From the NCBI GenBank assembly GCA_046540755.1, contig JBKHEO010000004.1, forward strand, positions 1,072-65,071: a DNA stretch of 64,000 nucleotides. Direction: 5' to 3'. Both the position numbers and the translations under genes were made by a program. How positions within the stretch are numbered: position 1 is the first letter of the stretch; each line of letters opens with the position of its first letter. Source of the stretch: Halomonas sp. (lineage in GTDB: Bacteria; Pseudomonadota; Gammaproteobacteria; Pseudomonadales; Halomonadaceae). This document shows positions 17,310 through 37,023 of the stretch, one piece after another. Below the pieces are notes generated by a model. The model did not search any database. It was not told where the DNA came from and was given only the letters and a program-made list of their open reading frames with translations.

Positions 17310-18644
17310 TCAGACGCGGCCTTCGAGCATGGCGTAGTAGGCGGGCTGCAGCAGGTAGTCCTTGAGGACCCAGGCGGCCCAGGACTCCTCCTTCGGATCG
17401 ATGAAGGAGAAGGAGGGCAGGAAGGCCATGTCGTCGTCGTAGCCGAACTCCACCAGCATCGCCTTGCCGATATCGGTGATCAGCGGGCAGGAGGTGTAGC
17501 CGTTGTGTCGCGCCGTGAGCGGTCGGTCCTGCAGGAAGGAGACGATGTTGGCTTCCACCACCGGCGCCTGGGCCTTGACGCTGGCCGCGGTCTTGTTGAT
17601 GGGCGCGCCGATCACGTCGCCGATACCGAACACCTCCGGGTAGCGTTGGTGCTGCAGGGTATGGATGTCGGTATCCAGCCACTGGCCGGCGAAGGGAGGT
17701 TCCAGGGCGATCAGGTCGCTGGCCTTGACGACGTCCGGGGCGCTCATGGGTGGCACCACGTGGAGGAAGTCGTAGTCGCGCACCTCGGTGCTGCCGTCCC
17801 GTGCGGTGAACTCGGCCTGGCGCGCCTCGGGGTCGATGGCGGTCAGGTGCTGCCCGTGATGGCGGGTGATGCCGTCGCGATCGAAGCGCTGCTTCAGGAA
17901 GTCACTGATCCAGGGCTGGCTGAACATGGCGTCGCTGGGAGTGAAGTAGTCCAGGGCGAAGTCGTCGCGATTACCGACCTTCTTGATGCGCGATTGGGTG
18001 GTGAAGGTCATCTTGATCGGCGCGCCGGCACACTTGATGGCGGTGGGCGGGTTGGTGAAGAGCCCCTGGCCGCCACCTTTCGCCAGCCAGGCGTCGATGG
18101 CATCCCGCGTTCGGCTCGCTCCCTCCAGGCTGGCGTAGACGCTGCCGATGCCATGGCGGCCCACCAGCTCCGGCGACATGCCGTCGATCAGGTGGTAGTT
18201 GAGCTGCAGCCCAGTGGCGACTACCAGTATGTCGTAGTCTAGAGTGGTGGCATCGGCGAGGGTCACGCGGCGCTTCCCGGCATCGATGCCCACGGCCGGT
18301 CCCTTGACCCAGTCGATGCCGGCGGGGCGGAAGTCGGCGTTGGGGCGCAGGGTGCGCTCGGCCTCCCAGACGCCGGAGGCGACCAGGGTCCAGCCGGGCT
18401 GGTAGTGGTGCTGCTCGCGGGGCTCGACCACGGTGATGCGGGCGCCATCGAGGCGCATGGCCAGGCGGTTGGCCATGGACATGCCGGCGGCGCCGCCGCC
18501 GAGGATGACGACACGGGCGCGGGTGGAAACGGTATCGGCCTTGAGGCCGGTGAGCGGTAGCAGGCCAGCCGCACCGGCACCCAGCCCCAGCTTGAGTAGC
18601 TGGCGGCGGCCGATCAGGGAGGCTTCTCGAGGGTGGCGTGACAT
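17310..18644 (-). CDS. Tat-exported FAD-dependent oxidoreductase, type II sulfide:quinone oxidoreductase-like
   Basis: Twin-Arg signal GRRQLLK, GGGAAG, HHYQPGWTLV, IKCAGAP.K and NGYTSCPL catalytic-Cys motifs, KTAASVKAQ. Confidence 0.85.
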   Translation of the reverse strand: MSRHPREASLIGRRQLLKLGLGAGAAGLLPLTGLKADTVSTRARVVILGGGAAGMSMANRLAMRLDGARITVVEPREQHHYQPGWTLVASGVWEAERTLRPNADFRPAGIDWVKGPAVGIDAGKRRVTLADATTLDYDILVVATGLQLNYHLIDGMSPELVGRHGIGSVYASLEGASRTRDAIDAWLAKGGGQGLFTNPPTAIKCAGAPIKMTFTTQSRIKKVGNRDDFALDYFTPSDAMFSQPWISDFLKQRFDRDGITRHHGQHLTAIDPEARQAEFTARDGSTEVRDYDFLHVVPPMSAPDVVKASDLIALEPPFAGQWLDTDIHTLQHQRYPEVFGIGDVIGAPINKTAASVKAQAPVVEANIVSFLQDRPLTARHNGYTSCPLITDIGKAMLVEFGYDDDMAFLPSFSFIDPKEESWAAWVLKDYLLQPAYYAMLEGRV

Positions 18645-18984
18645 GGCGACTCCTGCGTCGGTGATCACCGTTAATCTATTTCGTTATATGGTTATTATTA
18701 TCTAGAGATTGTGCCCTGTCCTTTATTCATTGGTCTGAGATGATTTGTCGCAATCCCGGTGTTGGCTGCTTCCTGGCAGGAGATGGCGACATCTTGCCGT
18801 GATTCGTGGCAGCGGCATCTCGACCCCCCGTCAAGGCGATCCGGCCGGGGTTTGCCATGCCCACTCCAGTCCTGCCGGCTGGAGGACCGCCGAGGAAGGA
18901 AGTGTGATGGGGGACGGGGTTCACGGCCGCAACCCGGCTACCCGAAAGGCGTGCCAAGGCACTGCGCCCACGAGGCGGGGGCCA

Positions 18985-19792: not shown

Positions 19793-19818
19793 CCGCGTTC
19801 ACCCCGCGAGGCGCGCGG

Positions 19819-19914
19819 CGATGGCATCCCGCGTTTGGCTCGCTCCCTCCAGGCTGGCGTAGACGCTGCCGATGCCATGGCCGCCTCTTGGCAGGAGATG
19901 GCGACATCTTGCCG
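19819..19914. pseudogene. Chimeric remnant of a second copy of the SQR-like locus
   Basis: 19819-19881 matches 18095-18157 (62/63); 19878-19914 matches 18763-18799 (34/37). Confidence 0.85.
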
Positions 19915-20096: not shown

Positions 20097-22586
20097 CTAG
20101 AACCGCAACCCAACCTCCAGGCTACCGCTACGCCCTGTTGTGGCCTGGCTGGAGTAGTCGCTGGTACTGTAGTCAACGCTGTCGTTGAACAAGTTAAGCA
20201 CCTCTAACTGGATGAAACCCTTGGCTTGACGCAGGATGGGAGGCTCCCAGCGAAGACGGGTGTCCACCGTCATCAGGGCATCGAAGTCGACATCCTCGTA
20301 GATATCGTAGTGGCGTCCCGTCTCCGGATCCTGTTGGTCCTCGAAGCTGTCGCGCGCGACGCTGCCGCCCTGACGCAAGTTGAAGAAATTGGACCAGGTG
20401 AGGTGCCAGCCGGGTACTTGCGTCACTGTCTGAAGGCGAACATCGACCGGTATATTGAAGTCCCAGGCCGGCAGTTCGTCCTCGTCGATCAGTTTACCCT
20501 GGTAGTAGACAGGATCCTCTTCCGGCTCGAGGTCATAACCGCTGCTGCCCTGATAGCTGCTGCGGCTGGTCTCCCGGTAGCTGATACCCAGAGAGGCGTG
20601 GTTGAGCGTGGCACCAAGCTCCCAGGGGCGGGCCATGGCGATATCCAGTGTTAGGCTGTCGGTGCTGCTGCGGCCTTCATTGCGGTAGTAGCTCAGGCCG
20701 TCGTCCTCCTCGAAGCGCAAGATGCCGTCTCGACTCTCGCGATTGACGAACTGGAGCTTGGTGTGGACCGGGCCCAGCTCCTGCATCCAGCCGATCATCA
20801 GCTCGTCGGAGTAGGGGGTGTCGAGGTCGCTGACGCCTGATTCGTCCTCGTAGGTGCGTGTGAAAAGAAGAGTGCCATCATCCTGGTAGAAACTCAGCTC
20901 CCTCCAGCTGCCAATGGTGTCATTGAGCTTGTAGCGAAGGAAATTACGACCGTAATAGCGGTTGGCCCCGGCAACAAGCCGTGTGCTGTCATCGCCAAAG
21001 GTATCCCATTCGGCCTTGAATCGTGGTGCGATGTCGAGGTTGTCCATGTAGCCGTTCCAGTCGGCGCGGACCCCGGGGGTAAAGGTCCAGTCGCCTAGCT
21101 CTATCCGGTCCTCCAGATACCAGGCTAGGTCGTTGTAGGTCAGGTCGACCTCGCCTGCGAAATAGTCGAAATTCTGGGCGAGGTAGGCGTCTCCTCGCCC
21201 GCTCTGACCGTCGCCGTCCTGGTCGACGCAGCCTTCGGCACCGTCCTCGATACACTGGTAGGACTCATAGGTGACGTCGTCGGGGCGCTCGTAGAAGCTG
21301 CGTGTGTGACGCAGCTGGGCGCCTATCGATACCTGGTGCCGCGAGTTGCCGAAATCAAGCTCGTCGAAGCGCAGCTCCGGGGCCAGAGTCGCCCGCGTCT
21401 GGGCCTGTTCGGTATCGCCGAAGCCGCCGCTCTGGGAGGGTTGACCGCTTCCTTCCCGATATTCGGCCATGGTGAAAGTGTTGCTGTCGCTGTCCAGGGT
21501 GTCGCTCAGGCGATCGACGCCGAGGTCCAGAGAGAAGTCGCCGATGGCCACTTCTCGCTCCCAGTGCAGCGTTGCCCCATACGCTTCATGACTCTTCTTG
21601 AAACGGTCATCGTAGCGAGTGCTGGTCAGCCCGTCGTGGCTGCGGTCGGTATAGCGAAACGAGAGCCCTAGCTCATCCTCTCCCAGGCGGGTATCGACAC
21701 GTCCCAGGATATTGCCGATGCGATCCTTATAGTCGATATTGTGAAGGACGCCTTCGCCGTCTTCATAGCTCTGGGCGAAGCGGGAGCTGCGCCGAGAGAC
21801 GTTTAAGGTTAAGCCGCTGTCATCGCCCAGGCTTTGTTGCAGGCTGATGCCATAATTCTGACGCAGGTAGTCGGGGGTATAGTCGCCCCGATAGTTGCTC
21901 TCAGGATCTTTGCGGTCGGCCTCGTCGACGTGAAAGCTCTCCCATTCGTCGCGCTTCTGGCCATGACGAAGGGACAGACTGTCTTCACCGTCATAACGTT
22001 TCAGCTCGGTGGATACCACGCCGCCGGTGAAGCCGCCATAGGCGGCGGGCACGTTGCTATCGAAGACCTCGACGCTCTCCAGCAAATCGACATCGAGAAA
22101 AAAGCCCTGAGGGGAGCTGCCCCCCGTAGGGTTGACCAGGCTGGGAGTTGACCAGACGTCCTCGTTATTGGCCGGATCCAGGTCGCTGCTCGTGTCGATC
22201 CCATCGAGAACGAACAGGTTCTGGTAGAAGGGTTGGCCGTGGATAGAGATCTCGCCGGGCTTGAGGGTAGCGCTGTTGGCCGACTGGTTGGCATCTCGGG
22301 AGAAGTCCACGGCGGTGTTCAGACGAAGGAGGTCCGAGAGATGGCCATCGCCGGTGGGCATCTCTGCAATATCCTTGTGATCATAGTGTGATCGATCAGC
22401 AAGCAGCTGACGACCGGCTTCAACTACGATAGTGTCGAGCCGATCCAACGTGGCAGCAGGGCATTCGCTCCCCTCAGGGCATTGATCCTGGGGCGCTTCG
22501 GCCCATGCCACACTGTAGCAGGTTAACAGGCTAGCGAGGCTTAACCCGAATTGTGCGGGTGTACGGCTTCGTGAAGGTTCGCTCAT
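20097..22586 (-). CDS. TonB-dependent outer-membrane transporter, YddB/FusA-like plug
   Basis: Signal peptide (AWA/E), TonB box DTIVV, plug motifs G.LSDLLR.N.AV, P.EISIHG..FYQN.F.LDGI, QGFFLDV.LL..VEVFDS.VP..YGGFTGGVV, IAPRF..EWD.FGD, GANRYYG, LDTPYSDE, C-terminal Phe; aggag RBS. Confidence 0.9.
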   Translation of the reverse strand: MSEPSRSRTPAQFGLSLASLLTCYSVAWAEAPQDQCPEGSECPAATLDRLDTIVVEAGRQLLADRSHYDHKDIAEMPTGDGHLSDLLRLNTAVDFSRDANQSANSATLKPGEISIHGQPFYQNLFVLDGIDTSSDLDPANNEDVWSTPSLVNPTGGSSPQGFFLDVDLLESVEVFDSNVPAAYGGFTGGVVSTELKRYDGEDSLSLRHGQKRDEWESFHVDEADRKDPESNYRGDYTPDYLRQNYGISLQQSLGDDSGLTLNVSRRSSRFAQSYEDGEGVLHNIDYKDRIGNILGRVDTRLGEDELGLSFRYTDRSHDGLTSTRYDDRFKKSHEAYGATLHWEREVAIGDFSLDLGVDRLSDTLDSDSNTFTMAEYREGSGQPSQSGGFGDTEQAQTRATLAPELRFDELDFGNSRHQVSIGAQLRHTRSFYERPDDVTYESYQCIEDGAEGCVDQDGDGQSGRGDAYLAQNFDYFAGEVDLTYNDLAWYLEDRIELGDWTFTPGVRADWNGYMDNLDIAPRFKAEWDTFGDDSTRLVAGANRYYGRNFLRYKLNDTIGSWRELSFYQDDGTLLFTRTYEDESGVSDLDTPYSDELMIGWMQELGPVHTKLQFVNRESRDGILRFEEDDGLSYYRNEGRSSTDSLTLDIAMARPWELGATLNHASLGISYRETSRSSYQGSSGYDLEPEEDPVYYQGKLIDEDELPAWDFNIPVDVRLQTVTQVPGWHLTWSNFFNLRQGGSVARDSFEDQQDPETGRHYDIYEDVDFDALMTVDTRLRWEPPILRQAKGFIQLEVLNLFNDSVDYSTSDYSSQATTGRSGSLEVGLRF

Positions 22587-22652
22587 GAATGTCAGGACTC
22601 CTGTACGGAATGGTTGGAACACGGTTGTGGTCAAATCCGACTTGTTATTGGG

Positions 22653-23753
22653 CTATGGCGTTTTTTTCGGGGAAGGGGGTAGCGCAGGAGGGTGGACTCT
22701 GGCCGGACGCCGGCTCAGGCTATGCAAGAAAGCTTCCAGGGCATCTAGCTCTTCATGGCTGAGCCCTAGAGGCTCGATCAGGTCTGACATCTCGGGCTGA
22801 CCGCCACGGTGGCCCTGTTGCATGCCCTGGTTGTAGGCGGCCAGGGTGCCGCGCAGATTGACGAAGAGCCCGTTATGCATCCAAGGCGTCGTGTACGTGA
22901 GATCGCGCAAGGAAGGTGTGCGAAAGGCTCCCTTGTCTTCTTCCTGGCCGGTGATAGAAAAGCGCCCCAGGTCTTCATGACGAGAACCGACGAGAGCCAG
23001 GCCGATATTGTGAAAACGGCCATCGGAAAACAGCGGACCATGGTGGCAATTCATGCAACGGGCCTTGGTGCGGAAGAGGTGCAGTCCTTCAATCTCTTGA
23101 TCGTCGAGACTGGCCTTGCCCTCCAGGAAGCGGTCAAAGCGGCTGGGGCGAGAGATCAGCGTGCGCTGGAAGGCAGCCAATGCCTTGCCAAGGGCTGATG
23201 CGGTTACGGAAGGCGTCCCGAGCGCTCGCTGGAAGGCTTCACGATAGCCTGGAATGGCGTTCAAAGTTTCTAGAACGGTATCGAGGTCTGCTGCCATCTC
23301 GATGGGATCTTCGATGGGAAGCAGCGCCTGCTCTTCCAGGCTGGAGGCACGGCCGTCCCAGAAGAAGCTGTCGAAGTAAGCCACATTGAGCAGCGTCATG
23401 GCATTTCGGGTGCCACGCTGTCGATCATGGCCGAACGACGTCGCTCGTCCATCACCCCAGCCAAGGTCGGGATCATGGCAGCTGGCGCAGGCTAGCTGTC
23501 CGGAGCCGGACAAACGTGGATCGAAGAAGAGCTGCTTGCCGAGTTCCTCCACCGCTGTGGTTTGCCAGGCCGGCAGCGCCGGCGCAGGGAGGCGACCCAG
23601 AGGCTCTGCATCGACGCCTTCCGCGACCGAGAAGGATGGCCACTGCCCTTGACGATAGCGGTCCAATAGCTCCTTGCTGAGATCCGCAGCGGCAGAAGAC
23701 GAGAGGAGGCAGCATGCCAAGAGCAGAATCCAACGAGAGGCGAGAGGAGTCAT
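22653..23753 (-). CDS. Periplasmic di-haem cytochrome c peroxidase (bCcP/MauG/MbnH superfamily)
   Basis: Signal peptide, LGKQLFFDPRLS, CASCH, RNAMTLLN, FWDGRASSLEEQA, CMNCH, FRTPSLR, PWMHNG. Confidence 0.92.
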   Translation of the reverse strand: MTPLASRWILLLACCLLSSSAAADLSKELLDRYRQGQWPSFSVAEGVDAEPLGRLPAPALPAWQTTAVEELGKQLFFDPRLSGSGQLACASCHDPDLGWGDGRATSFGHDRQRGTRNAMTLLNVAYFDSFFWDGRASSLEEQALLPIEDPIEMAADLDTVLETLNAIPGYREAFQRALGTPSVTASALGKALAAFQRTLISRPSRFDRFLEGKASLDDQEIEGLHLFRTKARCMNCHHGPLFSDGRFHNIGLALVGSRHEDLGRFSITGQEEDKGAFRTPSLRDLTYTTPWMHNGLFVNLRGTLAAYNQGMQQGHRGGQPEMSDLIEPLGLSHEELDALEAFLHSLSRRPARVHPPALPPSPKKTP

Positions 23754-23770
23754 GAGCGAACAAGAAGCCA

Positions 23771-23814
23771 AACGATAATTGTTCGCATCATATATTGTTG
23801 TTGATTTATGTCAA
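23771..23814 (-). promoter_or_regulatory. Promoter of the peroxidase-receptor operon with Fur-like and FNR-like boxes
   Basis: Minus strand TTGACA (23814-23809)-16-TATGAT (23792-23787); TTGAT-TTAT-GTCAA at 23801-23814; cGATAAT-t-gTTcgCA at 23773-23787. Confidence 0.7.
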
Positions 23815-28285: not shown

Positions 28286-28344
28286 TTGCGAGCGCGGAGG
28301 TGCCTGGGTAAACTGGAATGGTTTCTAGTTGACAATAATTCTCG
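28286..28344 (+). promoter_or_regulatory. Sigma70 promoter and Fur box of the fecIR-like operon
   Basis: TTGCGA (28286)-17-TAAACT (28309); TGAcAAT-a-ATTcTCg at 28330-28344 resembles the Fur 7-1-7 motif. Confidence 0.7.
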
Positions 28345-28357
28345 AGAAATATGCCCC

Positions 28358-28885
28358 ATGCCTTCCCCCTTGTCTCCGGCGTCTCATGACCAGGCCGAAA
28401 CGCTTTATCGCTCCGAGTACGGGTGGCTCAGAGGCTGGCTGAGGCAGAAACTCGGGTGTCCTGCACGGGCCGACGATTGTACCCAGGACACCTTTCTGCG
28501 TGTCCTCGACAGCCCCAGGACAGAACCCGTGGAGCGTCCCCGGGCCTTTCTGGCCCGTATCGCCACCCGCCTGTTGATCGATGATGCCCGCCGGGCCCGG
28601 CTGGAACAGGCCTGGCGCGAGACCTACGCCCTGGTGGTAGCCGAGCATGCCAGGGCCCCCTCGGCCGAGGAGATCAATGAACTGGTTGACACCCTGGAGC
28701 AGGTGGCCCGGCTGCTCGAGGGGCTGCCCGAGAAGCCGCGCCAGGCGTTTCTCCGCTTCCGACTGGACGGTGCCTCCCAGGCCGAGATAGCCAGCGAGCT
28801 CGGCGTCAGCGTCAGCATGGTCAAGAAGTATGTCGCCCAGGGCCTGCTGCATTGCCATCGGGCGTTACAAGATGGTGGAGACTGA
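28358..28885 (+). CDS. FecI-type ECF sigma factor
   Basis: WLRGWLRQKLGC...ADD.TQDTFLR, PRAFL.RIA, L.GLP.K.R.AF, IA.ELGVS.SMVKKY. Confidence 0.92.
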   Translation: MPSPLSPASHDQAETLYRSEYGWLRGWLRQKLGCPARADDCTQDTFLRVLDSPRTEPVERPRAFLARIATRLLIDDARRARLEQAWRETYALVVAEHARAPSAEEINELVDTLEQVARLLEGLPEKPRQAFLRFRLDGASQAEIASELGVSVSMVKKYVAQGLLHCHRALQDGGD

Positions 28886-29911
28886 ATGAGCCACAGGGTC
28901 AATAGCACTGGCGCCACGCATCAGCACTCACCGAGCGAGCGAGCACTGACCGAGGCGGCAGAGTGGCGGGTCGTGCTCGCGGAGGACGATGTGCCCGACG
29001 CGGAGCGATCCGCTTTCCGGCGCTGGCTCGAGGCCGACAGCGAGCATGCGCTGGCCTGGCAGGAAATGGAGACCACCTGGAATGCCCTGGCCGGCGCAAG
29101 GCGCCCGGCCGCCCGCCTTGCCCTGGAGCGCACCTACCAGCAGGAGCGCCATGACCGACGCCGCCTGCTGGGGGCAGGCGCCGGCTTCGTGCTGCTGCTC
29201 CTGACCCTACTGCCGGTGGTCTGGCTATCGCTGGGCATCGATTCGCCGAGCCATCTCTTCGCCGACCGCCACACTGCCATTGGCGAGCGCCGCACTCTGG
29301 AGCTGCCCGATGGTAGCCGCCTGGTGCTGGATACCGCCACGGCCGTGGAAGTGGACTTCGACACGGAGGCGCGGCGCATCCGATTGCTCGATGGCCGGGT
29401 GTTCATCGATGTGGCCCCCGATCCGGATCGTCCCCTGGAGGTGGTCACCGCCGAGGGGCGGGCCCGGGCCCTGGGCACCCGCTTCAGCGTGCAGCGCCTG
29501 CAACTGGACGGTACCGATACCACCCGCGTTTCGGTCTACGAATCCCGGGTGGCACTATGCCCCCCCGCGTCGAGCCAGGGCTGTCAGCGCCTGACCAGTG
29601 ACCAGCGTGCGGATGCGGCAAGCAACCGGGTCGGTCCGGTGGCCCGCTTTTCAGCGCCGGCCGAACCGGACTGGGTGGATGGCTACCTGCATATCGAGAA
29701 TCGACCGGTGGCGGCGGTGCTGGCCGAACTCGCGCGCTATCACCCTGGGGTGCTGCGATACGACACGGAGGAACTGGCAGGCCTCGAGGTATCGGGCGTG
29801 CTGCCGCTGGATGACACAGGTCGGGCACTCAAGTCCCTGACCGCCGCGCTGCCACTGGAGGTGAGTCGCTACACACCCTGGATGATCGCAGTGAAACGCA
29901 AAACTGAATAA
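28886..29911 (+). CDS. FecR-type anti-sigma/sensor
   Basis: AAEW...L (DUF4880-like N-terminus), one TM segment, T.IGE.R...LPDGS.L.LDT, ALGTRFSV, VSGV.PL.D. Confidence 0.92.
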   Translation: MSHRVNSTGATHQHSPSERALTEAAEWRVVLAEDDVPDAERSAFRRWLEADSEHALAWQEMETTWNALAGARRPAARLALERTYQQERHDRRRLLGAGAGFVLLLLTLLPVVWLSLGIDSPSHLFADRHTAIGERRTLELPDGSRLVLDTATAVEVDFDTEARRIRLLDGRVFIDVAPDPDRPLEVVTAEGRARALGTRFSVQRLQLDGTDTTRVSVYESRVALCPPASSQGCQRLTSDQRADAASNRVGPVARFSAPAEPDWVDGYLHIENRPVAAVLAELARYHPGVLRYDTEELAGLEVSGVLPLDDTGRALKSLTAALPLEVSRYTPWMIAVKRKTE

Positions 29912-29988
29912 AAATTTTTTGTATTTGCTGTCCTTCGCGGTGGCGAGTTCGTCAGTACAGGTAGAACCCCCCACTCGAGGACAGCAAG

Positions 29989-32406
29989 ATGCGGTTGAAT
30001 CACGACTCTCTGCGCCCCTTGGTACTGGCGATGGGGCTGGCAGCCTCGCTGGCGCTGCCCGGCACTGCCCTTGCCCAAACCGCCAACGGCACCGTCGAGG
30101 CCAGCCAGCGCTTTGACATCCCGGCCGGCTCTCTCTCCCAGGCGCTGAATCGTCTCGCCTCTCAGGCCGGACTGGCACTGAGCTACGATCCCGCCCTCGC
30201 TTCCGGCAAAACAACCGGCGGGCTGCAGGGAGAGTACAGCCCCGACCAGGCCCTGCAGCGACTCCTGGCGGGTTCAGGGCTCGGCTATCGCCTCGGCGAG
30301 AACGGCACCGTGACCCTGTCGCGCCAGGCGAGCGGCACCACGGCACAGCTTGACACCATCACGGTACAGGGCTGGCGGCCCACCGCCACCGAGGGCTACC
30401 GTGCAGGACTCATCTCTTCCGCCAGCAAGACCGATGAGCTGCTGGTGGACGTGCCGGCCGCCGTCTCCGTGGTAACCGAGGATCTTATCGAGGACCAGAA
30501 TGCCCGAAGTGTCGCCGAGGCGCTGCGCAACGTGCCGGGAGTAGAGGTAGGACCCAACCCGGCCAATGTTTCGGTGCAGGAGGAGTTCACCATCCGCGGC
30601 TTCGAGAATTCGTTGATCAACGTCAATGGTGTGGAACGGCGCTCCACCGGCCCGCTCAGCACCGCCAACGTCCAGAGCGTCGAAGTGCTCAAGGGACCGT
30701 TCTCCGTCCTCTACGGCCAGCTTACGCCCGGCGGTTTCATCAACGTTCAGACCAAGCGTCCCGAGAGTGAGGCCGCCTACGAGATCAGCGGCAGCCTCTC
30801 GCACACCCCCGAGGGCTCAGGCAGCGACGGAAGGGGAAGCGTCGATGCCACCGGCCCCCTCAACGAGAGCGGCTCAGTGCTCTATCGCTTCATCGCCTCG
30901 GCCGATGGTGGATCCTCCTTCATCGACGAGGTGGACAGCGAGCAGTACCTGATCAACCCCATGCTCTCGCTTTTTGCTCTGGACAATGACCTACGGGTGG
31001 ACCTCGACTTCAGCTACCTGCGCAACGATGAAACCTTCCTCTTCGGGATACCCGCGCGGGGCGACCGCCCCGATGGACGCATCGATTACACGGATTTTCT
31101 GGGCTCCAAGGAAAACGAAAAGTTCACCGAAGATTACAATGCCGAGGTGCGTCTGGAGTATTTCCTGAGCGATGCGACCCAGGTCGATGCGGCGCTCACT
31201 TACCACCTCAACGAGCATGACCACAAGGCCCTGCGCCCCTTCGGTCCGCCCGGCTGGGAGGTTCAGTCCGACGATACCATCAGACGTAGCTTGAGCCTGA
31301 ACGACTTCCAGACAGCCGATGAGGAGTTCGAGGTCAACCTGATTCACAACCTCGACACGGGCCCCGCGGAGTGGCGCTTCCTGACAGGGGCAGACGTCCG
31401 CCAGACAGAAGTGAAAAGCGTCGGATTGGGCCGGCGAAATATCCTCGATTTCGATCGCATCAATGTGCTCGATCCCAATAACGACGTTTCCCTGCCAGCA
31501 GGAAATGACGCGACACTCAGCTTCTTCCCCAAGACAAACAATACCGTCGATTCCTACGGGTTCTACGCTCAGGCCGAGACTTGGCTGCATGACCGGCTAA
31601 AGCTGCTCGGCGGTGTCCGCTACGACAACATCGAGTACGACTACACGGATGAAGGCGGCTATGCCTTCAACCAAAAGGATGACAAGGTCAGCCCGCGTGC
31701 CGGGGTGCTGTACAAGCTGACGCCGAACACCTCCCTGTACGGGAGCTACTCCTCCTCCTTCGAGCAAGAGTTCAACTGGGATCCCAGTGCAGAACCGTTC
31801 AAGCCCACCGAGGCCGAACAGTGGGAGGCCGGCATCAAACAAGAATTCTTCGACGGCGACCTGCTGGCCACCCTCTCTGCCTACACCCTGACCCAGGAGA
31901 ATCTGGCCGTCTCCGATCCGGACAACCCCGACCAGAATGTCCAGATCGGCGAGGTCGAGTCCCAGGGAGCGGAGCTAGAACTCCAGGGCCAACTCAGCGA
32001 CAGGCTGCGGCTCATGGCGGGCTATGCCTGGCTCGATAACAAGATTGCCCGGGACCCCTTGGGCAACGAGGGCAACAGGCTAGGTAACGTGCCGGAAGAG
32101 TCTGCCAACCTCTATCTCATGTATGACTTTCTCGAGACTGCCCGGGAGCGCTTCAGCGTCGGCGGCGGGGCTTTCTACACCGGTGAGCGATTCACCAGCG
32201 AAAGCAACAACGTGACCCTGGACAGCTACACCACTGTGGACCTGACAGCCCAGTATGAGTGGATGGTCGGCGATACCCGCCTGGAGCTGCAGGGCGGCGT
32301 AAAGAACCTCTTCAATGAGGAGTACTTCGCCGGTGGCTTCGGCAACGGCATTGCCTTCCGCGGCGAACCGATGACGCTCTACACCACCCTGAAGGCCAAC
32401 TTCTAA
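29989..32406 (+). CDS. TonB-dependent ferric-siderophore receptor with N-terminal signalling (STN) domain
   Basis: FDIPAGSL..AL signalling domain, TonB box DTITV, VEVLKGP.SVLYG, PGG.IN..TKRP, NLFNEEY, C-terminal Phe. Confidence 0.93.
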   Translation: MRLNHDSLRPLVLAMGLAASLALPGTALAQTANGTVEASQRFDIPAGSLSQALNRLASQAGLALSYDPALASGKTTGGLQGEYSPDQALQRLLAGSGLGYRLGENGTVTLSRQASGTTAQLDTITVQGWRPTATEGYRAGLISSASKTDELLVDVPAAVSVVTEDLIEDQNARSVAEALRNVPGVEVGPNPANVSVQEEFTIRGFENSLINVNGVERRSTGPLSTANVQSVEVLKGPFSVLYGQLTPGGFINVQTKRPESEAAYEISGSLSHTPEGSGSDGRGSVDATGPLNESGSVLYRFIASADGGSSFIDEVDSEQYLINPMLSLFALDNDLRVDLDFSYLRNDETFLFGIPARGDRPDGRIDYTDFLGSKENEKFTEDYNAEVRLEYFLSDATQVDAALTYHLNEHDHKALRPFGPPGWEVQSDDTIRRSLSLNDFQTADEEFEVNLIHNLDTGPAEWRFLTGADVRQTEVKSVGLGRRNILDFDRINVLDPNNDVSLPAGNDATLSFFPKTNNTVDSYGFYAQAETWLHDRLKLLGGVRYDNIEYDYTDEGGYAFNQKDDKVSPRAGVLYKLTPNTSLYGSYSSSFEQEFNWDPSAEPFKPTEAEQWEAGIKQEFFDGDLLATLSAYTLTQENLAVSDPDNPDQNVQIGEVESQGAELELQGQLSDRLRLMAGYAWLDNKIARDPLGNEGNRLGNVPEESANLYLMYDFLETARERFSVGGGAFYTGERFTSESNNVTLDSYTTVDLTAQYEWMVGDTRLELQGGVKNLFNEEYFAGGFGNGIAFRGEPMTLYTTLKANF

Positions 32407-32411
32407 ACGTG

Positions 32412-33437
32412 ATGGAAGCGATCACCGCCTCGGTCGGTCTGCGTCGTCACCCCCGGGTCGTGGCCCTGGCATCATTGCTGGGGCTTTTCCTGGTGGCGGC
32501 GCTGTTGAGCCTGCGGATCGGCTCAGTGTCGCTGGATACGGCCACCGTTCTCGCGGCGCTCTTTGCCTACGACGGCTCCGATGCCCATGCCATCGTACGC
32601 CACCTGCGCCTGCCGCGCACCGTGCTGGGCATGACCGTCGGCGCGGCCCTGGCCGTCGCCGGCGCCATCATGCAGGCGGTGACCCGCAACCCGTTGGCGT
32701 CGCCCACCATCTTCGGCCTCAACGCCGGGGCGATCTTCGCCGTGGTGGTGGCGATCTTCCTGCTGGGCATTGCCGAGCCCGCTGCCTACGTCTGGTTTGC
32801 CTTTGTCGGGGCGCTGGTGGCGGTCGGCATGGTGTTCATGGTGGCATCTGCCGGACCGGGCGGGGCCACCCCGGTGAAGCTGGCACTGGCCGGCACCGTG
32901 GTCAGTGCGCTGCTCTCCAGCTGGGTGAGCGGCATCCTGGTGTTCGACCAGGGCACCCTGGACGCCGCCCGCTTCTGGCTGGCCGGCGCCCTGGGCGGGC
33001 GCACCCTGGAGGCCTTCGTGCCGGTGGCGCCGCTCATGGGGCTGGCGCTGGTGGTGGGCGTGGGCCTGGGGCGTTCGCTGAATGCGGCGGGGCTGGGCCG
33101 CGATGTCGCCGTCGCCCTTGGCCAGCAGCCACGCAAGCTGTTGGCGGTCGCCACCGTGACCGTGGTGCTGTTGGCGGCTGGGGCGGTCGCCTGTGCCGGG
33201 CCCATCGGCTTCGTCGGGCTCGCCGTCCCCCATGTGGTGCGCGGCATCATGGGGCCGGACTACCGCTGGATTCTCCCGGCCTGTGTGCCGGCCGGCGCCG
33301 CGCTGCTGCTCCTGGCAGACGTGCTGGGGCGAGTGATTGCCGCGCCCGGCGAGATCGAGGCGGGGGTGATCACCACCATCATTGGCGCTCCCATACTGAT
33401 CCATATCGTGCGCCAGGCACGCCTGGCGAGGGCCTGA
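32412..33437 (+). CDS. Iron-siderophore ABC permease (FecCD family)
   Basis: LRLPRT, GAALAVAGAIMQ..TRNPLASP, GPIGFVGL.VPH. Confidence 0.92.
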   Translation: MEAITASVGLRRHPRVVALASLLGLFLVAALLSLRIGSVSLDTATVLAALFAYDGSDAHAIVRHLRLPRTVLGMTVGAALAVAGAIMQAVTRNPLASPTIFGLNAGAIFAVVVAIFLLGIAEPAAYVWFAFVGALVAVGMVFMVASAGPGGATPVKLALAGTVVSALLSSWVSGILVFDQGTLDAARFWLAGALGGRTLEAFVPVAPLMGLALVVGVGLGRSLNAAGLGRDVAVALGQQPRKLLAVATVTVVLLAAGAVACAGPIGFVGLAVPHVVRGIMGPDYRWILPACVPAGAALLLLADVLGRVIAAPGEIEAGVITTIIGAPILIHIVRQARLARA

Positions 33438-33439
33438 CC

Positions 33440-34477
33440 ATGTCCCGTTTGACGCTTCGCCTGCGCCGCCCCGTCGCCCTGTCATGGCGCCTCGAGCGGC
33501 GAGTGCTGATCCTCGCGCTGCTGGCGCTTGGCGCCCTGCTGGCCGGCACCGTGGCGGCCCTCTCCTTGGGCTCCTACCCCCTGCCGCTTCATGAAGTGCT
33601 CCATTCGCTGCTGGCCCAGGCGCCGTCTCCCCTGGCCGATCTGATCGTCAATGAGCTGCGTGCCCCGCGGGTAATGGCCGCGCTGCTGGTGGGCGCGGCG
33701 CTGGGCGTGTCGGGAGCGATATTCCAGGATCTGGTACGCAACCCCCTGGTGGCGCCTGACATCATCGGCGTCAATGCCGGCGCGGGCCTGGCCGCAGTGC
33801 TGGTGATTGCCGGCGGCGCGCCCCTGGTCTCGGTGCCCGTGGCGGCACTGGGCGGTGCGCTCGTCAGCGCCTTCGCCGTTTACGGTATTGCCTGGCGCCG
33901 GGGCGTGAGCGGTGCGCGCCTGGTACTGGTGGGTATCGGTCTCAATGCCCTATTGGCGGGGCTGACCACCCTGGTGATCCTGAGCACGCCGGTGGAGCAG
34001 GTCACCCCGGCCGTGGTCTGGCTCGCCGGCACCCTGGCCTTGTCGGACTGGCAGCAGGTCAGGGTCACGGCCGGCGGCGGAGGGGTGCTGCTGCTTTACA
34101 CCCTGCTGCTGTGGCCACGCCTGCGGGTGCTGGAACTGGGTGATGACGGCGCCCGCGCCCTGGGGGTGCGGGCAGAGCGCGACCGGGCGCTGCTGCTGGC
34201 CTGCGGTGCCGGGCTGGCGGGGCTGGCGGTGGCCGTTGCCGGCCCCTTGGCCTTTGTCGCTTTGGTGGTGCCCCACCTGACCCGTCTGCTGGTCGGCCCT
34301 CTGAGCGGCGGCGGCGTGGTGCTGGCGGCCCTGATGGGGGCGCTGCTGGTATTGGGCTCGGATCTCGCCGGCCAGCACCTGCTGGCGCCGGCCACCCTGC
34401 CGGTGGGCCTGGTGACCGCCAGCATCGGCGCTCCCTTTTTCCTGTTTCTGCTCTACCGGATGAACCGCCATGGCTGA
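33440..34477 (+). CDS. Iron-siderophore ABC permease (FecCD family)
   Basis: [45 protein letters not shown]. Confidence 0.92.
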
Positions 34478-35288
34478 CTGCGCTGACCTGCGTGCCGAGC
34501 GGCTCAGCCTGGGCTATGACGAGCGTACCGTCATGACCGGGCTGGACCTTGCCATACCGGCACACAAAGTAACCGCCATCGTGGGGCCCAACGCCTGCGG
34601 CAAGTCGACCCTGCTGCGGGCGCTGGCGCGGCTGCTTCGGCCTCGCCAAGGGGCCGTGCTGCTCGACGGTAAACCCCTGCATCAAATACCCACCCGCCGC
34701 CTGGCCCAGCGCCTGGGCCTGCTGCCCCAGGCGCCCAATGCTCCCGAAGGGCTAACCGTGGAAGACCTGGTCAGCCGCGGCCGCTTTCCCCACCAGCGGC
34801 TGTTCGACTACTGGAGCCCAGAGGATGAGCAGGCCGTGGACGAGGCCCTGACGCAGACGGCGCTGAGCGCGCTGCGCCAGCAGCGCCTCGATGCGCTCTC
34901 CGGGGGCCAGCGCCAGCGGGCCTGGATTGCCATGGCCCTGGCCCAGCAGACCGACCTGCTGCTGCTCGACGAGCCGACGACCTTCCTGGATATCGCCCAC
35001 CGCCTGGAAGTACTGGAGCTGTTGCGTAGGCTCAATCGGGAGCGGCAGTGCACGGTGGTGATGGTGGTGCACGAGCTCAACGAGGCGGTGCGCTATGCCG
35101 ACCATCTGGTGGCCATGCGCGATGGCGCCATCGTCGCCGAGGGGCCGCCCGCCGAGGTGGTCACCGCCGATCTGGTGGAGCGGGTCTTCGGTATCGTGAG
35201 CCGCATCATTCCCGACCCGGTCACCGGGCTGCCGCTGGTGGTTCCCGAGGCCAGCCAGGAGGCACCCCCCACGCTGAGGAGGGCGTGA
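34470..35288 (+). CDS. Iron-siderophore ABC ATPase (FecE/FhuC-like)
   Basis: [36 protein letters not shown]. Confidence 0.94.
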
Positions 35289-35290
35289 CC

Positions 35291-36100
35291 ATGGTCCCCC
35301 ATCCCTTGCGCGAGATCCTCGCCACGGCCAATCGACACGAGCGCTGGCTGCCAGTGATCCTGGCCGAGATCGACCATGAGCAAAGCCTGGCGACCCTGGT
35401 GAACGACAGGGAGCGCCTGCTGAACTGGGCGAGCGCGGTGGGTGACCGCCTGGGAGCCGAGGATGCGAGAGTCGGTCCAACCCTGCTGTTCGAGAGCCTG
35501 GTGGGCCTGACGGCACTGGCGCTGATCGGCCCCTATTTCATGGCTCGGCGGCTTCCCCTGGCGGGCGTGGCGCAGATCGAGCCGCGGTTCGACCCTGGCA
35601 ATCGGCCCGAGGAGCTGCGCCTGGCGCCGGGGCCGTTTGCCTGTCTGCCCGAGGACAAGGCGGCCGACCATCCGCTGGCCATCCCCGTGGCGTCGTCCGG
35701 GGAACTGTTCGCCCGCCTGCGGGAGCAGCTTATCGTGGTCAGCGAACCGTTGGTCCAGGCGATGGCGCGGCCGGCACGACGCGGGCTGCGTACCCAGTGG
35801 CGCGGGGTGAGCGACAGGGTCACCAATGCTGCCTGGTATGCCGGCATCCAGGCCGGGGATGAAACAGCCGGCATGGCCCTGGCCGAGGCACTCTGCGACG
35901 GCCGCGAGCCGCTGCTTGGCCGGCCCAATTTTCGTTCCTTCGACTATGAGGGGATCACCCATACCCACCGGGTCCGCAACACCTGCTGCCAGCATTTCCG
36001 CTTGCCCACCGGACGGCTCTGCTTTACCTGCCCGCTGACCAAGGCCAAGGATCGGGATCAGTTCTGGCGGGCACGCTACGACGAAAGGAAGACAAGATGA
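35291..36100 (+). CDS. FhuF-like [2Fe-2S] ferric-siderophore reductase
   Basis: C-terminal R.TCC-x10-C-x2-CP (TCCQHFRLPTGRLCFTCP); position inside the siderophore uptake operon. Confidence 0.85.
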   Translation: MVPHPLREILATANRHERWLPVILAEIDHEQSLATLVNDRERLLNWASAVGDRLGAEDARVGPTLLFESLVGLTALALIGPYFMARRLPLAGVAQIEPRFDPGNRPEELRLAPGPFACLPEDKAADHPLAIPVASSGELFARLREQLIVVSEPLVQAMARPARRGLRTQWRGVSDRVTNAAWYAGIQAGDETAGMALAEALCDGREPLLGRPNFRSFDYEGITHTHRVRNTCCQHFRLPTGRLCFTCPLTKAKDRDQFWRARYDERKTR

Positions 36101-37023
36101 GAGCCTGGCTGTTGACAGTGCTACTGCTCGCCATGGGAGCCGTTCAGGCGAGCGAGTGGCCGCGGGTGATCGTGCATTTGCAGGGCGACACCGAGCTGAC
36201 TGCCCCGCCGCAGCGGGTGGTCGCCCTGGATCCGACCGTGACCGACCATCTGCTTGCCCTGGGGCTGCCGCCGATCGGCTCTTTGACGTATGGCCTGGCG
36301 AGGCCTGACAGCCGCGACGCCTGGCCACCGGCCATTGCTGAGCAGGCAGTGGAAGCCAGCATTGCCCGGGTGGGTACCCCGGGCAATCTGGATCTGGAGG
36401 CCATCGCGGCGCTGGAGCCCGACCTGGTGTTGGCGTCCGGCTATGTCGGACAGAGTACTTACAACACTCTTACACGGATCGCACCCACGGTAATCATCGA
36501 ATCGGAGCGGCATTTTCGGAGCGACCTGCACCAGATCGCTGTTGCCGTGGGACGGGAGCAAGAGGCCGAGGCCGTGCTCGAGCGCTATGCCAAGCGGGTG
36601 GCGGCGATGCGGGCCCGCCTCGGGGGAGAGCGGGTCGCCATCGTTCGGCCGCGCCAGCAGTCGGTGTGGATGTACGGGCCGTCCTCCAATGCCGGCCGTC
36701 TGCTGACAGAAGCCGGCATCAACGTGAAGGCGGTACCGGACGGGGCCTCCATCACCTCGGATCCTCCGGGGGCTATCGGTGAGCTCTCTCTCGAACGTGT
36801 GTCTGCCATCGATGCCCCGCATCTGTTTGTCATTCTCTATAACCTCGACCATCACGCGGGGCTAGAAGGCTACCTGCAGGGACCGATGTGGCAACGCCTG
36901 CCGGCGGTACAGCAGGGCAACGTCCATGGCGTCGAAGGCATCGCCTGGACCAACCACGGACCCATCGGTGCCCTCAGGATGCTGGAGGAGGCGGCAGCCG
37001 CCCTGGAGGGGGGCCAACCCTGA
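36097..37023 (+). CDS. Periplasmic iron-siderophore binding protein
   Basis: Signal peptide, PQRVVAL, LEAIAALEPDL, IAPT, W.RLPAV.QG.V. Confidence 0.9.
   Translation: MRAWLLTVLLLAMGAVQASEWPRVIVHLQGDTELTAPPQRVVALDPTVTDHLLALGLPPIGSLTYGLARPDSRDAWPPAIAEQAVEASIARVGTPGNLDLEAIAALEPDLVLASGYVGQSTYNTLTRIAPTVIIESERHFRSDLHQIAVAVGREQEAEAVLERYAKRVAAMRARLGGERVAIVRPRQQSVWMYGPSSNAGRLLTEAGINVKAVPDGASITSDPPGAIGELSLERVSAIDAPHLFVILYNLDHHAGLEGYLQGPMWQRLPAVQQGNVHGVEGIAWTNHGPIGALRMLEEAAAALEGGQP

What the first reader, a model, noticed from the sequence alone, without database searches (positions are those of the whole stretch)
20097..23814. Candidate undescribed system: di-haem peroxidase plus YddB/FusA-type TonB-dependent transporter operon
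Seen: a self-contained, visibly more AT-rich unit of promoter, exported di-haem c peroxidase (CASCH, CMNCH, FWDGR, MHNG), a roughly 830-aa TonB-dependent transporter and a terminator. The plug motifs (EISIHG..FYQN..LDGI; QGFFLDV.LL..VEVFDS.VP..YGGFTGGVV) recall E. coli YddB and Pectobacterium FusA rather than siderophore receptors. Known: FusA imports ferredoxin for iron, and FusA/YddB are encoded with an M16 protease (FusC/PqqL) and an ABC transporter. MauG and MbnH oxidise Trp residues of partner proteins, and MbnH usually comes with MbnP. Neither an M16 protease nor MbnP is present here. Inference: a redox-coupled import system in which the peroxidase oxidatively processes an imported metalloprotein or chelate, or modifies the transporter, in place of proteolysis.
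Basis: partly seen in the sequence, partly recalled or inferred. Interest (0 to 1): 0.85.

Follow-up and report, generated by a model that had tools for sequence, protein, structure and literature searches.

The report
Protein importer with two-haem oxidant partner
This two-gene unit pairs an outer-membrane importer of the ferredoxin-receptor family with a tyrosine-bearing two-haem enzyme that likely frees iron from imported cargo by oxidation where related systems use a protease; the pairing is already in print, but no test of the enzyme's job was found.

Summary
A GC-poor unit (59% against 69% genome-wide) encodes a 366-aa di-haem enzyme and an 829-aa receptor whose only PDB relatives are YddB and FusA.

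It is not undescribed. Grinter et al. 2019 (PMC6793856) reported FusA homologues with a cytochrome c peroxidase where FusC is absent and proposed reductive iron release; their S1 table has 74 'C550' entries. This scan noted the same pairing in another genome (e1-7206067).

Added here:
- The enzymes form one clade apart from bacterial CcP, MbnH and MauG-like outgroups.
- Tyr sits at the MauG Tyr294 ligand position in 106 of 107 members.
- Of 24 FusA-type loci sampled by receptor alone, 13 have this enzyme only, 10 an M16 protease only, 0 both and 1 neither; the receptor tree needs at least 5 swaps.
- The clade also serves two other TonB-receptor families in Bacteroidota.
- A Fur-like box overlaps the -10.

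Best reading (0.4): Fur-controlled import of a small iron protein, with oxidative iron release. Substrate, chemistry and regulation are untested.

The parts
23787..23814 (-). sigma-70-like promoter, TTGACA-16-TATGAT
   Evidence: 11 of 12 match; the number of sites found is not above shuffles
23774..23792 (-). Fur-box-like site overlapping the -10 hexamer
   Evidence: 13 of 19 to the recalled Fur consensus, 1% of 500 shuffles as good; 110 sites of equal score genome-wide, so position carries the argument
22653..23753 (-). predicted exported di-haem c enzyme (CCP_MauG family), 366 aa, member of a TBDT-linked clade with predicted His/Tyr ligation
23475..23489 (-). haem 1 motif CASCH (residues 95-99)
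23043..23057 (-). haem 2 motif CMNCH (residues 239-243)
22833..22835 (-). Tyr313 codon; aligns with MauG Tyr294, with an MbnH Tyr, and with a Met in canonical CcP
   Evidence: Tyr in 106 of 107 clade rows, Met in 10 of 10 CcP rows
20097..22586 (-). FusA/YddB-family TonB-dependent transporter, 829 aa
20017..20048 (-). 14-bp perfect hairpin after the receptor, weak U-tail; terminator-like
   Evidence: (I23)

Best explanation
This is a two-gene unit, likely switched on by iron starvation, whose FusA/YddB-family receptor likely imports a small iron-bearing protein and whose two-haem enzyme, predicted to be periplasmic and His/Tyr-ligated, would use peroxide to oxidise that cargo and free its iron in place of the FusC protease. 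Shown here: gene anatomy, receptor family, Tyr at the ligand column, one enzyme clade, near-exclusive alternation with M16 proteases, and patchy distribution with atypical composition. Inferred: Fur control (motif only); protein cargo (family analogy); a bis-Fe(IV)-type oxidant (known for MauG and BthA, which share the Tyr); oxidation rather than reduction (no conserved electron-donor partner was noticed beside the pair, and an oxidant needs only H2O2); uptake of the freed iron by general Fe transporters. Acquisition by horizontal transfer is likely.
For: (1) The receptor's only PDB relatives are YddB and FusA. (2) Of 24 FusA-type loci found by receptor profile in family, order and class genome samples, 13 have the enzyme only, 10 M16 only, 0 both and 1 neither. 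Fisher p is 6e-6, overstated because kin are not independent. (3) On a 61-row receptor tree the M16 label needs 5 changes, all forced by well-supported branches, and the window's 7-row clade is sister to a 4-row M16 clade at support 100. (4) All 59 FusA-linked enzymes fall in one 107-row clade, SH-aLRT 98. (5) Tyr313 aligns with MauG Y294 and is Tyr in 106 of 107 rows; W138 and E158 are in 107 of 107 and Q148 in 104 of 107. In BthA the Tyr is needed for bis-Fe(IV), and the enzyme is not reduced by ascorbate (PMC6405878, passages). (6) Iron links: the Fur-like box here and in 7 of 15 related loci, two of which are the same site; an imelysin/DHOR/DUF1513 cluster or its DUF1513 end directly upstream in 4 close relatives; FecI/FecR, SBP/ABC and FecCD neighbours. 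(7) SbmA-like or MFS transporters follow the M16 gene or receptor in 5 of the 7 M16 loci whose neighbour was scanned; none is in the window's unit, as expected if no peptides are harvested. (8) The genome has a separate Met-type CcP on C11.
Against: No substrate is known for any enzyme-linked receptor, and no expression or biochemical data were found. Enzyme and M16 occur together in 3 loci (L052, L143, L144), so exclusion is not strict. MauG's surface hopping Trp199 has no counterpart here (Ala in 104 of 107; the W199 position is recalled). The fold is nearer to canonical CcPs (Z 35.1 MacA, 34.5 P. aeruginosa CcP) than to MbnH (32.9) or MauG (29.9), and the CcP-type His115 is kept in 86 of 107. 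The BthA Tyr mutants still turn over H2O2 with an artificial donor, so Tyr does not exclude a plain peroxidase role. In a phylum-wide sample of 16 Bacteroidota DUF6850 loci only 2 had the enzyme and 1 an M16, and 13 had neither. The clade's Tyr-rich loop at 260-261 is Leu-Val in the window protein.
Confidence: 0.4

Rival explanations
1. Reductive release, as proposed in PMC6793856: the di-haem protein passes electrons to the imported iron protein or chelate and frees Fe(II).
For: It explains the alternation with M16 equally well. The closest fold is Geobacter MacA, recalled to work in electron transfer. Low-potential His/Tyr haems would be strong reductants when reduced (inference). FeoA/FeoB are listed beside one A/C550 locus in the paper's S1 Table.
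Against: No conserved donor cytochrome or quinol dehydrogenase was noticed in the gene maps (only selected neighbours were scanned). The peroxide-site residues W138, Q148 and E158 are conserved. The Met that lets CcPs hold a stable reduced haem is replaced by Tyr.
Confidence: 0.2
2. Protective peroxidase: the enzyme removes periplasmic H2O2 while iron is being imported and does not touch the cargo.
For: CcP-like fold and retained His115. It sits beside three distinct receptor families, as a generic helper would. It co-occurs with M16 in 3 loci. BthA shows that Tyr/His enzymes can turn over H2O2.
Against: It does not explain why the 10 M16-only loci lack it and why only 1 of 24 loci has neither. 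The genome already has a Met-type CcP. A two-haem protein is costly under iron starvation (inference).
Confidence: 0.2
3. MauG/MbnH-like post-translational modifier: the enzyme oxidises a Trp or Tyr in the receptor or a surface partner to build a metal site.
For: Every characterised Tyr/His relative with a known substrate modifies a protein (MauG; MbnH-like/MopE pairs, PMC3621798 passages). Here the receptor is the only co-encoded protein. Enzyme and receptor distances correlate: Mantel rho 0.31 against a maximum of 0.23 in 999 permutations, 42 pairs; shared ancestry alone could give this.
Against: No Trp or Cys column separates 47 enzyme-linked from 10 M16-linked receptors. The three partner receptor families share no special kinship. 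No MbnP was found in the genome. The SusCD-linked lipoprotein has no conserved Trp.
Confidence: 0.1
4. The cargo is not a protein but haem or a hard-to-reduce organic chelate, which the enzyme degrades oxidatively.
For: Three Chitinophagaceae clade members lie near a TBDT plus HmuY. SusC/SusD-type partners usually carry non-protein or peptide cargo (recalled).
Against: Close sister receptors, 44% identical to the window's over the best segment (L108), are paired with an M16 protease, which points to polypeptide cargo.
Confidence: 0.1

Closest known systems
FusA-homologue clusters with a cytochrome c peroxidase gene ('A/C550') in Grinter et al. 2019, PMC6793856
   Same: Same two-gene content, and FusC is absent. 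The paper proposes redox release of iron without proteolysis. 'C550' occurs 74 times in S1 Table; I saw 30 of those rows.
   Different: In the sections read (6, 7, 11) the paper does not analyse the enzyme's ligands or phylogeny, and it proposes reduction. Here the enzymes are shown to be one clade with Tyr at the ligand column, also linked to Bacteroidota receptors. In the window the enzyme gene comes first.
Pectobacterium Fus (FusABCD) and E. coli YddB/PqqL
   Same: Homologous receptor; Fur-like control; predicted periplasmic processing partner.
   Different: No FusC/PqqL protease, dedicated TonB or peptide ABC transporter in the unit; cargo unknown.
MauG and BthA (His/Tyr di-haem, bis-Fe(IV))
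   Same: Tyr at the Y294 column, conserved distal Glu and Gln, and the inter-haem Trp as in MauG.
   Different: TIGR03791 score 235 against a cut-off of 444; no Trp199 equivalent; no mau genes adjacent; CcP-like N- and C-terminal arms.
MbnH/MbnP
   Same: Tyr-type di-haem enzyme, often near TBDTs.
   Different: TIGR04039 score 208 against a cut-off of 363; a separate clade; no MbnP found; an iron rather than copper context.
Canonical bacterial cytochrome c peroxidases (CcP, MacA)
   Same: Best sequence and fold matches; Gly-His loop and calcium-site motifs retained.
   Different: Met ligand replaced by Tyr; separate clade; fixed linkage to TBDTs.

Membership tests
FusA/YddB TBDT family | Full-length homology to FusA/YddB, to the exclusion of other TBDTs | tested here: met
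   only 6ofr and 4zgv at E<=1, covering residues 81-845
FusA/YddB TBDT family | Large open extracellular pocket for a globular protein | not tested
FusA/YddB TBDT family | Import of an intact protein | not testable with these tools
   needs binding and uptake assays
Fus system (FusABCD / YddB-PqqL) | Linked M16 protease | tested here: not met
   none in the unit; the one M16 gene found is on another contig (genome 85% complete)
Fus system (FusABCD / YddB-PqqL) | Linked SbmA-like ABC transporter or dedicated TonB | tested here: not met
   flanks are a flavodoxin-fold gene and an Iso_dh-family gene; only ATPase-domain matches genome-wide
Fus system (FusABCD / YddB-PqqL) | Fur regulation | tested here: inconclusive
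   13 of 19 site on the -10, shuffle p 0.01; no expression data
A/C550 clusters of Grinter 2019 | FusA homologue adjacent to a CcP-family gene, usually without FusC | tested here: met
   Pseudomonas helleri and Azonexus appear both in the paper's A/C550 rows and in my clade (L024, L052)
Canonical bCcP | Two CXXCH motifs, inter-haem Trp, distal Glu | tested here: met
Canonical bCcP | His/Met electron-transfer haem | tested here: not met
   Tyr313 at the column that is Met in 10 of 10 CcP rows
MauG | Tyr at the Y294 ligand position | tested here: met
   by alignment; actual ligation is not shown
MauG | TIGR03791 cut-off, surface Trp199, mau operon | tested here: not met
   235 against 444; Ala237; the W199 position is recalled; flanking genes
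MauG | bis-Fe(IV) state with H2O2 | not testable with these tools
   needs spectroscopy
MbnH | TIGR04039 cut-off and adjacent MbnP | tested here: not met
   (208 against 363)
His-Xaa-Ser system MauG-like protein | TIGR03981 cut-off | tested here: not met
   (143.5 against 340)

The most novel reading that the evidence does not exclude
A widespread clade of His/Tyr di-haem enzymes, for which no characterisation was found, is a general periplasmic iron-release module: a bis-Fe(IV) oxidant that strips iron from imported proteins, recruited by three separate TonB-receptor families and swapped repeatedly with M16 proteases. It would be the first MauG-type chemistry used for nutrient release rather than cofactor building.
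Probability: 0.3. Interest if true: 0.75.

Novelty: new member of a known kind. Interest (0 to 1): 0.42.

Why it matters
How protease-less FusA-type systems free iron is an open question left by PMC6793856. In my receptor-based sample, more than half of the loci are of this type (13 of 24). The Tyr ligand gives a cheap test that separates the published reductive idea from an oxidative one, and this minimal two-gene unit is a clean system for it. If oxidation is right, it adds a new job to the CcP/MauG superfamily and a new route of iron scavenging in marine and soil bacteria.

Tried and rejected
Searches that gave nothing:
- The search for related loci with the single receptor found no relative among 51 pattern matches.
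- No RNA holder was listed for the unit; this is no evidence on expression.
- Literature searches for expression or biochemical data returned 0 papers. Searches gave listings with no paper on this pair's function; I read passages from 3 of them. Searches gave the context papers. The library lacks most subscription journals, so 'no test found' is limited to these 10 searches.
- Earlier-findings look-ups showed nothing.

Models:
- The first AlphaFold model (25 sequences) was poor, pLDDT 59.7, and was replaced by one at 95.9.
- Enzyme plus isolated receptor plug: no verdict. The full pair exceeds the size limit.

Ideas rejected or left open:
- My recalled idea that the DUF4876 loci are the Capnocytophaga ICS was wrong: the ICS homologues are SusC/SusD-based. 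Whether the SusC/SusD-linked loci relate to ICS was not tested.
- Kinship of the DUF4876-type receptor to FusA is rejected: its profile score (152) is below that of FusA against ordinary TBDTs (176).
- An enzyme-specific Trp in the receptor was not found.
- An MbnP-like role for the SusCD-linked lipoprotein is not supported.
- The ESM Atlas gave only unnamed or weak clusters for the 1075-aa neighbour.
- A shared contig length for 31 of 120 top hits of each protein hints at co-location and was not used as evidence.
Full report
Observation. The unit is as described. On the minus strand come a sigma-70-like promoter at 23814-23787, a di-haem CCP_MauG gene (22653-23753), a 66-base gap, an 829-aa receptor (20097-22586) and a 14-bp hairpin with a weak U-tail. 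It sits between an Iso_dh-family gene and a convergent flavodoxin-fold gene. GC is 0.592 against 0.694 for the genome, and 1 of 615 tiles is as low. The receptor family was found in 0 of 15 same-genus and 3 of 150 same-family genomes, and those 3 are M16-linked. The best enzyme matches in those 150 genomes reach only E 9e-64; the top 19 score 274-313 bits on the clade profile, and the representatives placed on the tree fall outside the clade. Near-identical receptors exist elsewhere, at 81-84% identity, one named uncultured Halomonas sp.. Patchiness plus composition suggests horizontal acquisition (inference).

Receptor. Its only matches among 177,635 PDB sequences at E<=1 are YddB (7e-90) and FusA (1.5e-69). 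PMC6793856 (abstract, sections 6, 7 and 11, and parts of S1 Table read) defines this family as putative protein importers. It states that where FusC is absent, cytochrome c peroxidase family genes were found in multiple cases and might reduce the imported protein to release its cofactor. S1 Table holds 74 'C550' entries, of which I saw 30. So the pairing is published. The scan's earlier finding e1-7206067 reached the same view on another genome; I had found the paper before seeing it.

Enzyme. It is below the cut-offs for MauG, MbnH and the His-Xaa-Ser enzyme. Tyr313 aligns with MauG Tyr294 and an MbnH Tyr, and with a Met in G. sulfurreducens CcpA. A tree of 134 dereplicated rows, from 181, puts 107 rows, including all 59 FusA-linked ones, on one side of a branch with SH-aLRT 98. 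The other side holds 27 outgroup rows of CcP, MbnH-family and MauG-like proteins; none of the MauG-like rows passes the MauG cut-off, so true MauG and BthA were not on the tree (quick search, no bootstrap). In the clade, Tyr313 is in 106 of 107 rows, W138 and E158 in 107, Q148 in 104 and H115 in 86. Clade-specific near-invariants are Y39, W44, H231, R234, T235 and A237. The AlphaFold model (pLDDT 95.9) is closest to canonical CcPs (Z 34-35), then MbnH (32.9) and MauG (29.9). It is thus a CcP-like scaffold carrying a MauG-type ligand. PMC6405878 (passages) reports that the Tyr is needed for bis-Fe(IV) in BthA and MauG, that BthA resists ascorbate reduction, and that BthA Tyr mutants still turn over peroxide with an artificial donor.

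Neighbourhoods from the enzyme side. Of 80 GTDB loci (the best 80 of 595 confirmed in a partial scan), 69 show a TBDT of one of three kinds within 7 kb. These are 20 FusA-type (20 of the 21 proteobacterial loci), 35 TBDT-DUF4876-DUF6850-type and 14 further SusC/SusD-type. Three more lie near a TBDT plus HmuY. The three receptor kinds are no closer to each other than to ordinary TBDTs. DUF4876-TBDT loci appear in the iron-stimulon tables for P. gingivalis and B. thetaiotaomicron (PMC10434189, table passages only); those rows list no peroxidase.

Neighbourhoods from the receptor side. In genome samples searched by receptor profile only (151 + 401 + 401 genomes, overlapping; the two larger searches scored at most 2 candidates per genome), 24 loci were fetched. 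Of these, 13 have the enzyme only, 10 M16 only (2 of them cut by contig ends), 0 both and 1 neither. In 67 metagenome loci, found with patterns from the window's clade and therefore biased, 1 was dropped for low score and 10 for short flanks. Of the other 56, 49 have the enzyme, 2 both, 2 M16 and 3 neither. On a 61-row receptor tree (FastTree) the M16 label needs at least 5 changes, and the window's clade is sister to an M16 clade. No Trp or Cys column marks enzyme-linked receptors. Against generality: of 16 DUF6850 loci from a phylum-wide Bacteroidota sample, 2 have the enzyme, 1 an operonic 933-aa M16, and 13 neither, carrying for example HEAT-repeat, amino-acid permease, ABC/DUF4857 or CobW genes.

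Iron. A 13-of-19 match to the recalled Fur consensus overlaps the -10 (shuffle p 0.01). Seven of 15 related loci, two of them the same site, have 13-16 of 19 at p<=0.04, and 8 do not; in several of those the enzyme is not the first gene. Four close relatives follow an imelysin/DHOR/DUF1513 cluster or its DUF1513 end, which I recall as iron-uptake genes. Others carry FecI/FecR, SBP/ABC or FecCD genes. No expression data were found.

Mechanism. The enzyme occupies the slot of the processing protease, so it most likely acts on the cargo. Oxidation is preferred over the published reduction because the peroxide site is intact, the Met that stabilises a reduced haem is replaced by the bis-Fe(IV)-enabling Tyr, and no conserved electron donor was noticed, whereas an oxidant needs only H2O2 (confidence 0.4). 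Reduction (0.2), peroxide protection (0.2), modification of the receptor (0.1) and a non-protein cargo (0.1) remain open. The missing Trp199 equivalent, the CcP-like fold and three loci with both partners count against the preferred reading.

Verdict. This is a real unit and a new member of a gene pairing noted in print in 2019, for which my 10 literature searches found no functional test. The added value is the ligand and clade analysis, the repeated swap with M16 proteases, and the link to Bacteroidota receptors. Interest 0.42.

Noticed in passing
window 19805-19885 and 18081-18161; 18763-18799 and 19878-19914: An 81-nt, 91%-identical copy of part of the Pyr_redox_2 (sulfide:quinone-reductase-like, by my reading) gene and a 37-nt repeat lie in the gap just beyond the unit's hairpin; possibly a duplication or insertion scar around the flavodoxin-fold gene.
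   Followed up: no
L003:8125-11352 and L004, L063, L165, L189, L191, L195, L196, L200, L203, L205: A family of roughly 950-1100-aa proteins sits beside FusA-type receptors in 11 loci, with either partner type. The L003 member is acidic and has a lipobox; L003 and L189 have no Pfam hit and L191 has cadherin/Ig domains. It is a candidate surface cargo-binding protein.
   Followed up: partly
L231:12823-15624; L217, L218, L232, L233: Bacteroidota TBDT-DUF4876-DUF6850 operons end either in this enzyme or, once, in a FusC-sized M16 protease, echoing the proteobacterial swap; most sampled loci carry other modules.
   Followed up: partly
L008, L012-L015, L017, L019, L021, L023, L026, L030, L065, L074: SusC/SusD loci linked to the enzyme carry a conserved lipoprotein (about 190-490 aa; the member scanned has no Pfam hit), many behind FecR.
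   Followed up: partly
window 28286-37023: An ECF sigma/FecR/TBDT/FecCD/ABC/periplasmic-binding-protein iron-siderophore-type cluster lies 4.5 kb from the unit.
   Followed up: partly
G000:C11:39097-39990 (L186) and L082-L100: The genome's second CcP-family gene and 9 relatives have Met at the ligand column but Asn in place of the His of the MHNG-type motif.
   Followed up: no
L114, L119, L122: Tandem arrays of two or three FusA-type receptors, followed in L114 and L122 by one enzyme gene, like the A/A/A/C550 rows of the published table.
   Followed up: no
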